A stretch of DNA of 64,000 nucleotides, from positions 25,296,001 to 25,360,000 of the forward strand of contig OZ260665.1 of assembly GCA_965285935.1 (NCBI GenBank). Reading direction: 5' to 3'. The position numbers are program-made. This stretch comes from Ophelia neglecta. Taxonomy: Eukaryota. This document shows, piece after piece, positions 33,001 through 51,000 of the stretch (its first letter is position 1; every line of letters begins with the position of its first letter).

Positions 33001-36000
33001 CTAGACATTAAAACATGTAATATTTTCCGGGAACCCGTTTCCCATTGGTTGGCGTAATAATGATATTGATAGCAATCATTGATTTGCAAATGTGTTTAGG
33101 AACGTTTGTTATTTAAACGCTTTTACCAAATATGTCAACTCCAGGAAAAGCACACTACGCCCTGACCTAGCTTTCAACATTAATTTTTGTATGGTACTTG
33201 CATGTTTACTCCAAGTCCCTGTCGCGAGTAGGCACGATTTAGATACAAAATGAGTACACTGCAAATGCGATTAGCCAAATTAAAGCAGTCTGACTGTGAA
33301 TGTTGTGGTTGTTTAGACAACGAAAAACACTTCTTATACTAGTCTGTACTCATTTCGATCACATCCGTAACAAATATACATAGATCCTTGTACTACACAC
33401 ATGGATTAACTGATCAGGTGATCGAACTATTGTGTTTGAACAACTCATACACGTGTTCTAAATAAACCGTTACTTTTTCCTCAAAAAAAAGGTAGGCACG
33501 ACAAGAGGGAGACTAAGCAAGTGTAAACAAACAATGTTTCAAAATAAAATCCACCAAATTGCTGAAATAAGTTTCAAAGCATAATTGCATTCGGATACTT
33601 GTCGAATTTTGTTCTATAGAAATACCCGCATATTTGTGGTATTTTAGTTTAGTTGTTTTACAGCAATATGCTGGTATGTGTAACGTAAATACGAAATGGT
33701 TTGTAGTTAGGGAATCCTTTCTCAATGTACGACATGTTATAGGTTTGTGTCTATGATATTTAACGGATTGATTACACATATACGGGTGTATACTACTATA
33801 CGCTCATACTGATCCTCAATAACCGCCAGACAATAATTAAATTTGTGATTTAGCCTAACTAGGCGGGAAGAAACGAACAGTGACCATTTGAGACTTTTTA
33901 ATTCTAAAGCATAGCCTAAATTGTCTAAATTGAGTTTATAATCTGGTTTTAATATAAAATGATTATATTAGCATGTTTGGTTTACAACTCTAGTATAGTT
34001 GGTCCCATAACTCATTTGTCTTTGTCATTGTCATTCTCATCAAAGGTCATTCAATACGCCTGTATCGATGCGGCCATTTTTACGCTTGTCTTGACATCAT
34101 GACGCATATATCGTTCTGGAGAAAGTCCACGTAATAAATGATCCCTTGAAGTGCTCTGATATGTCCAATCTTGTACCGACGCCCACTCTCCACCAACGCG
34201 GTCTCTCGAGCAATTTGGCTAAGACATGTGCCATTTGAGAAGCAGGCCCACTTGTTCTTCAATGTGTCGTATTTGCTACCAATCCTAGGCTTCTAATGTA
34301 GATATCCCACTGTAAAGGAGATTCGGTTATTACCTTTGTTCTTTGAACTAATAGACCCAAGGACAGGTGGTAGCAAACTCATTCTCAACAATATACTCAG
34401 CGAGTTTTTAGTACAGACTTTTTATTTACGCGTAGCATCACGGCTTTAAGTTACAACATGACTCATTTACCCAGACGGCAATATGGGCGGCGGCGGCTCG
34501 ACTCGGTAAAATGATTCTTCTTTGCATCCTGGTCATTTTATTTTTATTTAGATATTCAATTCACCTTTAATCAACATCTAGAAATTGACCACAAGGTTCC
34601 CAGTTGTCTCTAACCAGCTTGAACAGCCTGTGGAAAATGCTGTTCTCTTACACCGCTGAATATAGATGCCAACTTGTGCCTCAATATGTTTAACAATGCA
34701 TGTGTTTTGTAAAGCTTCGCGGAAAGTAAGAATCTGCTTTGTCAGAGACACGTGTTTGTACCAGATCATAGGTTGTCATACCTTTGTTTCACATCCAAAT
34801 TGAACTTCGTTTTCTTTGCATGGATGCTATGTACAATATTCTCATGTACATGTATGTAATTTAATTATATTCTATTAATATATTCCGCTATGGCAATAAA
34901 ACCATTATTCGTTTGTTGCTATGGCAAAATAGTAAAGTTTTCTTATTTCATGACTGCAACATTACACTGTATATACTTTAATGCTATACTCTATTCCGTA
35001 AAAATAGCCAGTCGGACAAATTATGAAACTGATACTGCACTGCCATTCTATAACTTTAATAAATGTTTAACCTTTCTCTCTTTGCAGGTATAACTTAGCG
35101 TGGCAAAGAGAACATATCATTATTGTGATCAGAAATAGGCATTTTACCAGGTGAAAAGGACAATGGAATGGATATTTCTATAAGCGGTTCTGTTGAAACC
35201 TAATAAATTATATTTGCTCAAGGATATCCCACAAAGACATTGGTTTGCTTCAATTCCTTCTTTTCAATTGTGCATCACAAACTTTGGGCCGGATTTGAGA
35301 TTGACCGGTAGGGACGGCCGAGTATGAAGAAGGGCGAACACGTGATTGACTATGACAATGACGACGACCTTGACCCCAATCGAGGTCAATGCTGTTTGCG
35401 AGCAGCCCATTTCTCAGCCTCGTTTTCGATTATGGCCATTTTGTCGGCCGTGATTCTTATCCTTTCCTTCTACGACAAATACTTCTTCAATCTACGGACA
35501 CCCGCCGCCGCTATATTCGGTTTGACGTCATTCCTCGCCGTGATCACTGGCATCGTGTCTATTTTCATTGAGTGTCGTCTGCAGGAAAAGTCACACTTCT
35601 GTCGTCGAATTTACTTCATCGTCTGTTGTCTTTGTGTTGACGACATAGACAAACAGATTTTGTATGGGCGGACAAAGGTATAGAACAACAGCTATACTAC
35701 CATATCTCTCAGATAAAATGTACTTATAAATACGCGTTTAGAGAATAACGGTGACCTCGTGAAAGCTTAGTATCTGCGTGCCCACATGGATCCTGAGATG
35801 GCCACATATATCCACTAACTTTTCAACTTAATCTGGCTTCTCTTTTGGAACAAAAGTTCTCAGTGTGCACATAATACAGGCGGTGAATTTTCTGTGCTAA
35901 AACATTGGCTATAAACAAATACATATAGATTATGGCATTGCATATGTGCACTGAGCTGTGGTTTTCGAAATGCAAAGCAAGAAAGCGATCAGGACAAATA

Positions 36001-48000: not shown

Positions 48001-51000
48001 CTTACTAGTTCCTATCATACACCAATCGTGAGAACATAACGTCGTATTCAATGTTTCTGACTATTTGACTAAGTGCACATAAATGTCCTGCCTACTTATA
48101 GGACTGTACACTTTGTGCAAGGGTAAACGTCCAAGCGTGCTTCATATTATTTACTTGTATATATATTTAATGCACATCCGACATCTTACCTGAAAGGAAG
48201 ACCACCTCATTACATCATTGTCATATCTGTGTCCATTTCATTGAGCCCAGTATGACATCGCCATATCAAAATGTTTATCAGGCAACTGGAATCTCCAAGA
48301 CAATCGAGACAAATAGGTTGTCGTCATTCCAATCCTTTCGTGACGCCATATGGGTCATAGCGATACAGTTAAATTGGCATTTTCCCCTCCATGTTGTTTT
48401 AAAGGAAACTACTGCCATTTTGATTGCATATTAAAGGTGACCATTTTGATCATTTTTATCACAATCCCATATTAGCAGAGACAACTATGCCAGTGTCTTC
48501 TCATGTCATTCTTGAAGGGGCATAGGCCTATAGGTCTTGTCACCCCCATTCGTCCCATTCGCAGAGACTGTGTTATTGTCCTTCCTCTCTTATGATGTAA
48601 AGTTTAACTTATTTTGGTTTAACTTGGTCTACCTAGCTAGCAACATGTTATGGTAGTCATTCAATCAAAATTCATAATGTATTGATTGTGACAGCAATCT
48701 AATTTACATAATCATTTTGGATCTACAGGTCCCAAATAGAGCATGTAGCTGACAGAAGACGAACGGATATAAATATGGAACATCGATACGTAAAGGGATT
48801 TGTCTGTGTCTTTTTTAAAGCGGTCTACATGCATGCGGAGTAAGACATTATTTAACTGAAATCAAATATTGGAGCGCCGTGTACAGATTGTGGTCTTCTA
48901 GGAGGTATGATTAAAGGCGAGCGCGCGGTTGCCTATGACGACGATGGTGAATTTGACCCCAATCAGGGTCAATGCTGTTTGCGGGCTTCTCATTTCACAG
49001 CCTCCTTTTTATTGTTGGCAATTTTGTCGGCTGTTATTTTCATCCTTTCCTTCCACGACGTATACTTGCACAATCTACGGACACCCGCCTCTGCCATTTT
49101 GGGTCTGACGTCATTCCTCGCCGTTGTCACCGGGCTTGTTTCAATCTTCATCGAATGTCGTCTGCAGGAAAAATCACATTTCTGTCGTCGCCTTTACTTG
49201 GTCATTTGTTGTCTCTGTATTGATGACATTGACAGGAAGGTTATGTGTGGACCCACTTCAACCCAAACCAAAACATCTCTCAATTTTCGGCAGATAAAAT
49301 ATAGATTTGTAGACATCCCGAAGGACTTTAATGGAATATATACAAACGGCACATTGCACGACATTGGCCAGGAGATAATTAGCACTACTACTGTAGTTTG
49401 ACACGTGCAAGGAGCTGATTACATAGGTGGATGAATAACTTCTAGCATACAGGCAAGCTGGACGGGGCCTGCTCTATAGTCCTACAGCCCATTGGTCCTA
49501 CGACCCATTGGTCCTACGGCCCATTAGTCCTACGGCCCATTGGTCCTATTATCTCGGGCCCGGGTCCTACGACCCATTGGGCCTACAGCCCATTGGTCCT
49601 ACGACCCATTGGTCCTACTACTATACCTTTTAATTGGTATATATAGGGTAAAGTCGGGAAATTTCGCGCACTGCTGCGTAAAGTAACCCGACATTGCTCA
49701 ATAACTACGTGACACATGACTGCTGAGGACAGTCAGCGCTCTTTTGATTCAGATCTACGTACTAACTGTTGTTTTACAAATGTTAACATTCTGTTGAACA
49801 ATGTAGATGAAATTAGTCTCTGAGTGTGAGATAACAACCTGCAGATTAATGATGAAAGAACATAACTGCGTGCTGGTGATTAGAACACCATATAATAAAC
49901 CAAATCAGCGTAAAAAAAATTGTTGACCGTGCTGAGGAACTTAAACAGAAATGGTCGTTCTGAAATTGAGGACAAATATCCGACCTAAACGTCAATACAC
50001 TACAAAACAGGCGGAAGCTTCATACCAAACAAGCATTACAATACCACATTTGGCTCTTAATGTAGATGAAATTAGTCTCTGAGTGTGAGATAACAACCTG
50101 CAGATTAATGATGAAAGAACATAACTGCGTGCTGGTGATCAGTACACCATATAATAAACCAAATCAGCGTAAAAAAAATTGTTGACCGTGCTGAGGAACT
50201 TAAACAGAAATGGTCGTTCTAAAATTGAGGACAAATATCCGACCTAAACGTCAATACAAAATTAAATAATTTTCCTCTACATAAAAAGGTCCGAATTAAA
50301 CTAGATCTCTGGAACTGAGCTTTGCTCAGTTTCTAGGCTTCACCCTAATCGATTGGCTTATTTTCAACGTTAAGCTGATACAGGGCTGTTTTCAAATTTC
50401 AAAAGTAGGTTAAAGCCAAAATGTAGGTGACCAACGCTGATACAGAGCTTAAAATTTCAAAAGTAGGTCAAAGGTCAACATCTAGGTCACCAAAAGAATC
50501 CCCTCATTTGGTTTCCTATAGGTGTCTAATACATATATAGTTGATATCTTGCACCCTTAAGCTGATACAGGCCTTCAAATGTCAAAACAGAATGAAAAAA
50601 TATTTGAAAAAATTGTTTAGAACCAACTAAAAGCCTGTCTCAGTGAACATAATTTTCTTTCACCGGACCAGTCTGCCTATAGAAAATACCATTCTACAGA
50701 AACATCATTACATAGGGTGATAGCTGACCTATTGGATGCTGTTAACGAAGGCCTGGTTGGTAGAATTTGATTTTTTGACCTGCAAAAATGTTTCGATACC
50801 ATAGACCATAGCATCCTACTCACTAAACTGGAACATTATGCCGGGTGGTATTCGCGGTACCTGCAAACTATGGTTTGAGAGTTATTTAACTGATAGAAAA
50901 CAAGCTGTTTTAGTAAATGGGACACTTTCCTCTTTTTTGCAAATTGAATACGGAGTGCCACAGGGCTCTGTGCTTGGCCCGTTACTCTTTCTGTTATTTA

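What the first reader, a model, noticed from the sequence alone, without database searches (positions are those of the whole stretch)
35324..49401. Co-oriented cluster of an unrecognised small Cys-rich two-TM protein family (two intact genes, one pseudogene)
Seen: two single-coding-exon ORFs 13.6 kb apart align without gaps at about 69% identity, with many synonymous and conservative changes, while their flanks have diverged. A decayed third copy lies between them. Layout: acidic N-terminus, GQCC, TM1, a loop of about 10 aa, TM2, invariant IECRLQEKSHFCRR, then a hydrophobic CCLC segment. There is no signal peptide. Inference: both termini are cytosolic, the Cys clusters are palmitoylated, and the family evolves by birth and death. 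The overall plan recalls two-TM channel or receptor auxiliary subunits such as PIRT/TMEM100, but I see no sequence-level match to any family I know. Non-conservative differences in the membrane region cluster in the short loop (YDKYFF vs HDVYLH).
Basis: partly seen in the sequence, partly recalled or inferred. Interest (0 to 1): 0.72.

Follow-up and report, generated by a model that had tools for sequence, protein, structure and literature searches.

The report
Unnamed small two-pass membrane protein genes
Two neighbouring genes and a decayed third copy encode a small, cysteine-rich, two-helix membrane protein that is kept by selection, has unnamed relatives elsewhere and matches no described family, so it is real but its function is still a guess.

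Summary
ORF A (35324-35683, 119 aa) and ORF B (48907-49401, 164 aa) lie on the + strand. They align at 82/119 residues (69%) without gaps. DNA similarity stops at the coding borders. Differences fall 24/14/46 by codon position, and dN/dS is about 0.21 at dS about 0.8, so both are selected coding genes. A co-oriented relic at 40533-40687 keeps only the second half. It has lost the conserved Glu/Cys residues and shows relaxed codon-position bias.

A profile search of 1.84 billion representative proteins found 19 unnamed clusters. These share the signature C-C/W-L-R-A-x-H, TM1, R-T-P, TM2 with a Gly, F-V-E-x-R-L-Q-D/E-K/R-S, C, and V-C-C. Pfam, PDB sequences, Foldseek against PDB and a motif search of papers gave nothing significant. 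AlphaFold2 predicts a confident helical hairpin followed by two short helices.

The family is real and undescribed. Cytosolic termini, S-acylation and an accessory-subunit role remain inference. Transcription, taxonomic range and splicing could not be checked.

The parts
35324..35683 (+). Gene A: complete ORF of 119 aa. Acidic N-tail; GQCCLRAAH; TM1 about 30-49; loop 50-60; TM2 about 61-82; IECRLQEKSHFCRR; IYFIVCCLCV; short tail ending RTKV.
   Evidence: ORF. Alignment with B. dN/dS 0.21. Family HMM E 2.8e-53. AlphaFold2 helices 23-50, 52-83, 91-102 and 107-117, mean pLDDT 76.9.
48907..49401 (+). Gene B: complete ORF of 164 aa. Same plan as A over residues 1-119, followed by a 45-residue low-confidence tail ending TTVV.
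   Evidence: ORF. Family HMM E 4.5e-55. AlphaFold2 helices 24-50, 52-83, 91-104 and 107-113, with residues 120-164 mostly pLDDT < 50. B has the longer branch (0.31 against 0.12 for A).
40533..40687 (+). Decayed partial copy (pseudogene relic). It corresponds to residues about 57-108 (TM2, post-TM2 motif, CC) and lies within an ORF 40481..40684 that has no matching first half.
   Evidence: tblastn E 8e-6. Identity of 96/153 and 97/153 nt to A and B. Differences by codon position are 21/13/23, against 8/0/20 for A versus B in the same columns. Glu83, Cys84 and Cys93 are replaced (ISGHMHGTSHVGGR).
35071..35087 (+). Splice-acceptor-like polypyrimidine tract plus AG, 237 nt upstream of A's ATG. It may mark the start of the coding exon. 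This is tentative.
   Evidence: Pattern match only (sequence read). No RNA evidence.

Best explanation
A and B are tandem paralogues of an undescribed family of small eukaryotic membrane proteins of about 120-190 aa, and the relic between them is a dead third copy. Each protein is a helical hairpin: two transmembrane helices joined by a loop of about 10 residues.

**Shown here:**
- Both genes are under purifying selection.
- A family exists beyond this genome.
- The hairpin fold is predicted with confidence.
- The family has a fixed signature.

**Inferred:**
- The acidic N-tail and the C-terminal region both face the cytosol.
- Cys23/24 before TM1, and Cys93 and Cys101/102 after TM2, lie at the cytosolic face of the membrane and are S-acylated. 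This would pin the amphipathic post-TM2 helix and the short hydrophobic VCC segment to the bilayer.
- The protein has no enzymatic domain. It would act as a lipid-anchored accessory or adaptor subunit that binds another membrane protein (a channel, receptor or transporter) through the hairpin and loop, and controls its trafficking or gating through the tails.

Gene number changes by local duplication and decay.
For: **Selection.** Differences fall 24/14/46 by codon position. NG86 gives dN 0.175, dS 0.827 and a ratio of 0.21. Three other methods give dN 0.17-0.19 and dS 0.69-0.73. A shifted-frame control gives 1.05.

**Family.** The profile search found 19 clusters at E <= 1e-3, 12 at <= 1e-10 and 3 at <= 1e-30 among 1.84 billion representatives. 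The start M-I-K/R-G recurs in P0001, P0002, P0005 and P0007, so the ATG is probably the true start.

**Signature across the 20 aligned rows:**
- Cys23 17/17
- Leu25 17/17
- His29 16/17
- Pro60 18/20
- Gly76 18/20
- Glu83 19/20
- Cys93 14/19
- Cys101 18/19

**Fold.** There are two Kyte-Doolittle peaks above 1.6. AlphaFold2 gives helices 23-50 and 52-83 with block pLDDT of 89-94, in two independent jobs.

**Topology.** K+R totals are 27 + 65 on the terminal flanks against 38 in the loop. TM1 and TM2 contain 1 charged residue in 821 positions.

**Variable Cys number.** Cys84 is present in 5/20 rows, Cys102 in 11/19 and Cys104 in 6/16. This fits lipidation sites better than a fixed disulphide set; that reading is inference.

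**Not a mobile element.** A and B match no Pfam family at E <= 10. Their flanks are not shared. Of 65 other ORFs of 65 aa or more in 30-52.5 kb, only an RVT_1 fragment at 50805-51272 and spurious hits in a satellite appeared.
Against: - No experiment or RNA data support transcription, topology, acylation or any partner.
- The loop carries a conserved Arg58 (14/20) and 38 K/R in total, so the positive-inside signal is only moderate. The very acidic N-tail would by the charge-difference rule (recalled) favour an N-out orientation.
- His29 and Glu83 are as conserved as the cysteines, which acylation does not explain.
- The accessory-subunit role rests on analogy alone. The nearest named language-model neighbours (TMEM100 0.78, PIRT 0.76, TMEM174 0.76) score below the level the tool treats as meaningful.
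- The relatives are ORF predictions without names, taxa or context. The look-up that might have supplied these was unavailable.
Confidence: 0.4

Rival explanations
1. Same hairpin, opposite topology: the termini are luminal or extracellular and the loop is cytosolic. The conserved cysteines would then form disulphides that tie the N-flank to the post-TM2 segment, giving a small exposed Cys-knotted surface that binds a ligand or neighbouring protein.
For: The N-terminal tail is strongly acidic, and the 15-residue N flank is net negative across the family (27 K/R against 36 D/E). The loop is net positive (38 against 28) and has a conserved Arg58. Cys23 and Cys101 are fixed in position. In an antiparallel hairpin, residues 23-24 lie level with 79-84; this is inferred from the helix limits.
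Against: The C flank is the most basic segment (65 K/R in 297 residues). The number of cysteines varies between members and is often odd. There is no signal peptide or hydrophobic leader.
Confidence: 0.15
2. The conserved Cys23, His29, Glu83, Cys93 and Cys101 form a metal site (for example zinc or copper) at the membrane face. The site would staple the two ends of the hairpin together, making the protein a metal-dependent structural module or a metal sensor or chaperone rather than a lipidated adaptor.
For: Cys23 (17/17), His29 (16/17), Glu83 (19/20), Cys93 (14/19) and Cys101 (18/19) are all conserved at fixed positions. All lie on the same side of the membrane, at the ends of helices 23-50 and 52-83 or just after.
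Against: No known metal-binding family or structure matched. His29 may simply pack against Gly76.
Confidence: 0.1
3. The ORFs are not complete genes. They would be exons of larger spliced genes, or their ends would be wrongly delimited.
For: - A ends at AAG|GTATAG, which could serve as a weak donor.
- An acceptor-like tract lies at 35071-35087 and another just before B's ATG at 48894-48901.
- Similarity between A and B begins 2 nt before the ATG.
- The C-tails differ in length.
Against: - The Met start is shared by several relatives.
- A search among proteins of 288-2000 aa found no longer form; the tool calls this weak evidence.
- Every one of the 19 clusters carries the whole conserved region in one ORF.
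- No other coding domain lies within 30-52.5 kb.

Untranslated 5' exons remain quite possible and would not change the protein.
Confidence: 0.1
4. The hairpins assemble into a homo-oligomeric pore, as viroporins or holins do.
For: The hairpin is small and TM2 has conserved small residues, including Gly76. Single family members gave weak, isolated Pfam hits to holin families: 1 of 20 members each, best E 1.3e-4.
Against: The holin hits are one member each and inconsistent across the family. The membrane spans contain no polar or charged lining residues (1 charged residue in 821 positions).
Confidence: 0.05

Closest known systems
PIRT and TMEM100 (vertebrate two-pass regulators of TRP channels)
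   Same: All are small proteins of about 130 aa with two transmembrane helices, a short connecting loop and no other domain. TMEM100 is described as a two-transmembrane protein that regulates the TRPA1-TRPV1 association (abstract of PMC10077888 as shown in the listing; paper not read). PIRT's role is recalled. Both appear among the named language-model neighbours of family member P0011, at 0.78 and 0.76.
   Different: There is no sequence relationship. The Pfam models did not match A or B at E <= 10, and they are absent from the 25 families listed of 31 that any of 20 members matched at E <= 1. The CCLRAxH, FVExRLQ and VCC signature is specific to this family. The neighbour scores are below the tool's 0.9 line.
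CD225/dispanin proteins such as IFITM (recalled)
   Same: Both are small membrane proteins with two hydrophobic segments and membrane-proximal cysteines. In IFITM3 these cysteines are S-palmitoylated (recalled), which is the working model proposed here.
   Different: There was no Pfam CD225 match. The conserved region of CD225 is the loop between the hydrophobic segments (recalled). Here the loop is short and is the most variable part of the core, and conservation lies on the flanks.
FAM70/TMEM255 and CD20/MS4A (four-pass proteins)
   Same: They appear as weak language-model neighbours of A, at 0.77 each.
   Different: Those families have four transmembrane helices (recalled). A and B have two hydropathy peaks and two long predicted helices. 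There was no Pfam match.
TMEM88 (recalled: a two-pass protein whose C-terminal PDZ ligand binds Dishevelled)
   Same: It has two transmembrane helices. A, B and P0002 end in S/T-x-V (RTKV, TTVV, SAV), the class I PDZ-ligand pattern (recalled). That is 3 of 22 family rows against 0.035 expected per row, P = 0.039.
   Different: This was not tested for homology. 19 of 22 family rows lack the pattern, and the ends of ORF-predicted proteins are uncertain.

Membership tests
PIRT (Pfam PF15099) | Match to the family profile | tested here: not met
   A and B matched 0 Pfam families at E <= 10. PIRT is not among the 25 families listed (of 31) for the 20 members at E <= 1.
TMEM100 (Pfam PF16311) | Match to the family profile | tested here: not met
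   as for PIRT. The only link is a language-model neighbour at 0.78, below the 0.9 line.
PIRT/TMEM100-like architecture (works like, not membership) | Two transmembrane helices with a short loop and no other domain | tested here: met
   Two hydropathy peaks. AlphaFold2 helices at 23-50 and 52-83 in A, and at 24-50 and 52-83 in B.
CD225/dispanin (Pfam PF04505) | Match to the family profile | tested here: not met
   Searches show no CD225 match.
FAM70/TMEM255 and CD20/MS4A | Four transmembrane helices and a profile match | tested here: not met
   There are only two spans and no Pfam match. The neighbour scores are 0.77.
Transposable-element ORF | A mobile-element protein domain, or copies that share flanking or terminal repeats | tested here: not met
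   No Pfam domain. Similarity between A and B ends at the coding borders. The nearest reverse-transcriptase fragment is 1.4 kb beyond B.
S-acylated membrane proteins (functional class) | Thioester-linked fatty acid on cytosolic, membrane-proximal cysteines | not testable with these tools
   Only the prerequisite is seen: cysteines next to both helices. The side of the membrane they face is inferred.
The unnamed family defined here (P0001-P0020) | Signature Cys23, Leu25, His29, Pro60, Gly76, Glu83, Cys93 and Cys101 in a two-helix frame | tested here: met
   A and B carry all eight positions. The profile found 19 clusters, with P0001 at E 8.4e-75. Within the part it retains, the relic at 40533-40687 has lost Gly76, Glu83 and Cys93 but keeps the Cys101-Cys102 pair; its first half is missing.

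The most novel reading that the evidence does not exclude
These genes are members of an undescribed animal family in which a fixed Cys-x5-His ... Glu ... Cys ... Cys cluster at the membrane face forms a metal- or redox-sensitive clasp that closes a transmembrane hairpin. Lipidation or metal state would then switch the interaction of the hairpin with a partner channel or receptor. The paralogues would differ mainly in the exposed loop (YDKYFF versus HDVYLH) and would so be tuned to different partners.
Probability: 0.1. Interest if true: 0.6.

Novelty: new variant of a known kind. Interest (0 to 1): 0.4.

Why it matters
Small membrane proteins are often missed by gene annotation, and several are important regulators of channels and receptors. 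Here a family can be defined from sequence alone. It has a clear signature, evidence of selection, and relatives down to about 25-30% identity, and none of the resources searched here (Pfam, PDB, the names carried by the protein collection, open-access full text) names it. That yields a short list of residues to mutate (Cys23/24, His29, Glu83, Cys93, Cys101/102) and a simple set of experiments. On present evidence this is one more lineage-restricted orphan family. It is worth annotating but not yet surprising.

Tried and rejected
- **Homodimer prediction.** Complex prediction with two copies of residues 18-119 gave no answer (score 0.00 against a mark of 0.32; controls were not run; the tool did not use the alignment). 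It counts neither for nor against self-association.
- **Word-indexed protein searches.** The search with A alone found only P0001. The search for longer forms found none. The search with the 20-row profile found 6 hits, all unnamed and from 'lgn' or 'ena'.
- **Cluster look-up.** Names, accessions and taxa of the relatives are therefore unknown.
- **ESM Atlas.** The best scores were 0.79 for A and 0.80 for P0011, which are leads only. No structure search was possible.
- **Structure and sequence libraries.** Foldseek against PDB gave 0 of 152 listed matches at E <= 1e-3, and the top hits were generic helical hairpins. The PDB sequence profile gave one hit at E 0.74, which is noise.
- **Pfam on all 20 members.** The scan returned 31 families, almost all matched by a single member. 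DUF2678 and DUF7472 were matched by 2 of 20 members each, at E 0.015 and 0.035. I rejected these as hydrophobic-segment noise.
- **RNA families.** Rfam at gathering thresholds gave 0 matches in the window.
- **Papers.** Four sequence motifs searched 'anywhere' found 0 papers. A keyword search returned 6 papers, all on unrelated channels or viruses judging by title and abstract start.
- **Shared regulatory DNA.** None was found between A and B.
- **Rejected readings.** A transposon ORF (no domain, no shared flanks), and a chance ORF pair (dN/dS of 0.21 against 1.05 in a shifted frame).
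Full report
**What is there.** The window carries two ATG-to-stop ORFs on the + strand: A at 35324..35683 (119 aa) and B at 48907..49401 (164 aa).
- They align over all 119 residues of A with 82 identities (69%), 102 positives and no gap, at E 6e-66.
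- At DNA level the similarity runs only from 35322 to 35667 against 48905 to 49250 (78.6% over 346 nt).
- A word-7 search of 1.5 kb on either side found only chance 9-14-mers.
- With dS near 0.8, neutral flanks are expected to be unalignable, so the sharp borders need no special explanation.

**Are they genes.** Yes, both are constrained coding sequences.
- The 84 nucleotide differences fall 24/14/46 on codon positions 1/2/3.
- Nei-Gojobori gives dN 0.175, dS 0.827 and a ratio of 0.21 (0.17 for codons 21-109).
- LWL85, YN00 and ML give dN 0.17-0.19 and dS 0.69-0.73.
- The same calculation in a shifted frame gives 1.05.

**The third copy.** It is a dead, partial copy, and its first half is gone or beyond recognition.
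- tblastn with A finds 40544..40684 on the + strand: 40% identical over 47 aa to A residues 60-106, E 8e-6 for the window.
- In a three-way DNA alignment, 40533-40687 is 96/153 identical to A and 97/153 to B. The upstream half is 64/154, which is not alignable.
- The relic's differences from A fall 21/13/23 by codon position. A versus B in the same columns gives 8/0/20.
- Gly76, Glu83, Cys84 and Cys93 are replaced, and stops lie upstream.
- A family HMM run over all 2826 six-frame ORFs of at least 15 aa found B (4.5e-55), A (2.8e-53) and this relic (0.014). Nothing else scored below E 1.

**Surroundings.** A and B are not parts of a mobile element, and no other gene is evident between them.
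- Of 65 other stop-to-stop ORFs of at least 65 aa between 30 and 52.5 kb, 61 had no Pfam match at E <= 0.01.
- One is a reverse-transcriptase fragment (50805-51272).
- Three are translations of a 16-bp satellite that hit the 10-residue GnRH model spuriously.
- Pattern matches that may bear on gene structure, none tested against RNA:
  - an acceptor-like tract at 35071-35087;
  - TATAAAT at 48768;
  - AATAAA/ATTAAA first seen at 36146 downstream of A and at 49894 downstream of B.
- Nothing led me to take the window for human.
- The N run at 29688-29949 was left as it is.

**Relatives.**
- The word-indexed search found one near-length relative, P0001 (136 aa, 76% identical, no name).
- It found no longer form among proteins of 288-2000 aa, which the tool calls weak evidence.
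- A profile of A, B and P0001 run over 1.84 billion representative proteins found 19 clusters at E <= 1e-3, 12 at <= 1e-10 and 3 at <= 1e-30.
- A second indexed search, with a 20-row profile, returned 6 proteins. All were unnamed, from 'lgn' or 'ena', and some were listed with longest contigs of 2-3 Mb.
- P0019 and P0020 are both listed with a longest contig of 2,036,333 bases, so they may share a contig.
- P0003 contains two near-identical copies of the domain in one ORF.
- These last two points hint at tandem arrays elsewhere.
- The cluster look-up that could have given names or taxa was switched off, so the taxonomic range is unknown.
- A tree of 23 rows was built from the 20 alignment rows plus P0020 and the two halves of P0003; P0021, a fragment, was left out.
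  - It places A, B and P0001 in one clade (97/96).
  - A and B are sisters at 92/81, which is not a starred branch.
  - B's branch is longer, 0.31 against 0.12.
- At the 37 A/B differences, P0001 agrees with A 21 times, with B 10 times and with neither 6 times.

**Family signature.** Counts across the 20 aligned rows, taken where a residue is present:

| Position | Conservation |
|---|---|
| Cys23 | 17/17 |
| Cys24 | 14/17 (Trp in the other 3) |
| Leu25 | 17/17 |
| His29 | 16/17 |
| Arg58 | 14/20 |
| Pro60 | 18/20 |
| Gly76 | 18/20 |
| Phe81 | 16/20 |
| Glu83 | 19/20 (Asp in the other) |
| Gln87 | 16/20 |
| Cys93 | 14/19 |
| Cys101 | 18/19 |
| Cys84 (variable) | 5/20 |
| Cys102 (variable) | 11/19 |
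| Cys104 (variable) | 6/16 |

The start M-I-K/R-G recurs in several relatives, which supports the annotated ATG.

**Fold and topology.**
- Kyte-Doolittle analysis shows two peaks above 1.6, spanning roughly residues 27-55 and 59-86.
- For A, AlphaFold2 with the family alignment gives mean pLDDT 76.9 and pTM 0.57, with helices 23-50, 52-83, 91-102 and 107-117. Block pLDDT is 89-94 across the hairpin.
- For B it gives helices 24-50, 52-83, 91-104 and 107-113, and a tail (120-164) that is mostly below pLDDT 50.
- The two spans hold 1 charged residue in 821 positions across the family.
- K+R totals are 27 (N flank), 38 (loop) and 65 (C flank). By the positive-inside rule (established knowledge, recalled) this leans towards cytosolic termini.
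- The lean is not strong. The N flank is net acidic and the loop is net basic.
- The first 22 residues have no hydrophobic stretch, so there is no cleavable leader; this is read directly from the sequence, and no predictor was run.

**Comparison with known families.**
- Pfam gave 0 families for A and B at E <= 10.
- Scanning all 20 members at E <= 1 gave 31 families, of which the first 25 were shown. All but two of those shown were matched by a single member, and none is a plausible relative.
- The family profile against PDB sequences gave one hit at E 0.74.
- Foldseek against PDB gave 0 of 152 listed matches at E <= 1e-3.
- The ESM Atlas gave best scores of 0.79-0.80.
  - Named neighbours for A were FAM70 and CD20, at 0.77 each.
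  - Named neighbours for P0011 were TMEM100 (0.78), PIRT (0.76), TMEM252 (0.76) and TMEM174 (0.76).
  - All are below the 0.9 line, so they are leads only.
- A full-text search for four motifs found no paper. A keyword search found only unrelated papers, judged from titles and abstract starts.
- Supplementary files were not consulted.

**How it probably works.**
- Shown: a selected hairpin membrane protein with no enzymatic domain, and with its conservation concentrated on the two segments that flank the hairpin on one side of the membrane.
- Inferred: that side is the cytosol, the flanking cysteines are S-acylated, and the protein serves as a lipid-anchored accessory subunit or adaptor for another membrane protein.
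- My confidence is about 0.9 that this is a real, undescribed two-pass family.
- It is about 0.5 for cytosolic termini with acylated cysteines.
- It is about 0.25 for the accessory-subunit role.
- The fixed His29 and Glu83 suggest something more specific than acylation, perhaps a metal or hydrogen-bonded clasp. I keep that as the boldest reading.
- The rivals are inverted topology with disulphides, a metal site, a mis-delimited gene, and an oligomeric pore. They are listed in the rival explanations with what would refute each.
- The homodimer prediction gave no answer and is not used as evidence.

**Smaller points.**
- The claim that non-conservative differences cluster in the loop rests on 3 of 7 such differences in the core (p = 0.046). 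For all differences it is 4 of 19 (p = 0.22).
- A, B and P0002 end in S/T-x-V, the class I PDZ-ligand pattern (recalled). That is 3 of 22 rows, P = 0.039, which is a lead only.

**Verdict.** The family is real and does not appear in any library or name source searched here. The functional reading is plausible but untested.

Noticed in passing
window 1556-4627 (-): Three adjoining long open frames of a non-LTR retroelement. One matches reverse transcriptase (RVT_1, E 7.6e-24) and one is endonuclease-like (Exo_endo_phos_2, E 8e-6). The frames are interrupted, so the element is probably dead.
   Followed up: partly
window 16201-16755 (+): An open frame encoding Gly-X-Y collagen triple-helix repeats (Pfam Collagen, E 2.3e-21). 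It is probably an exon of a collagen-like gene.
   Followed up: partly
window 49479-49618 and 51805-52042: Arrays of a 16-bp satellite (GTCCTACGGCCCATTG and its reverse complement) lie in opposite orientation on either side of a reverse-transcriptase fragment at 50805-51272. Their translations give spurious hits to the 10-residue Pfam GnRH model.
   Followed up: partly
window 52230-54310 and 54309-56381: A head-to-tail duplication of 2,081 bp at 99.6% identity. It is either a very recent tandem duplication or an assembly artefact.
   Followed up: no
window 36735-37154 versus 52965-53703 and 55037-55774 (-): Two short interspersed-repeat matches of 117-165 nt at 75-78% identity. They link the A-B intergenic region to the duplicated block downstream, on the opposite strand.
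   Followed up: no
window 49800-49999 and 50059-50258: A 200-bp direct repeat at 98.5% identity, just downstream of gene B.
   Followed up: no
   Followed up: no
window 18987-19439 (+): A 150-aa open frame with one strongly hydrophobic stretch (LLAWASVLTLVFLVIILLGVL) followed by an acidic segment. It has no Pfam match, and whether it codes for protein is unknown.
   Followed up: no
window 35669-35680 and 49387-49398; protein P0002: A, B and P0002 end in S/T-x-V (RTKV, TTVV, SAV) although their tails differ in length. That is 3 of 22 family rows, P = 0.039. It may be a PDZ-binding end or may be chance.
   Followed up: partly
window 21395-21811 (-): A weak endonuclease/exonuclease/phosphatase match (E 0.002, below the Pfam cut-off), probably another retroelement remnant.
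   Followed up: no
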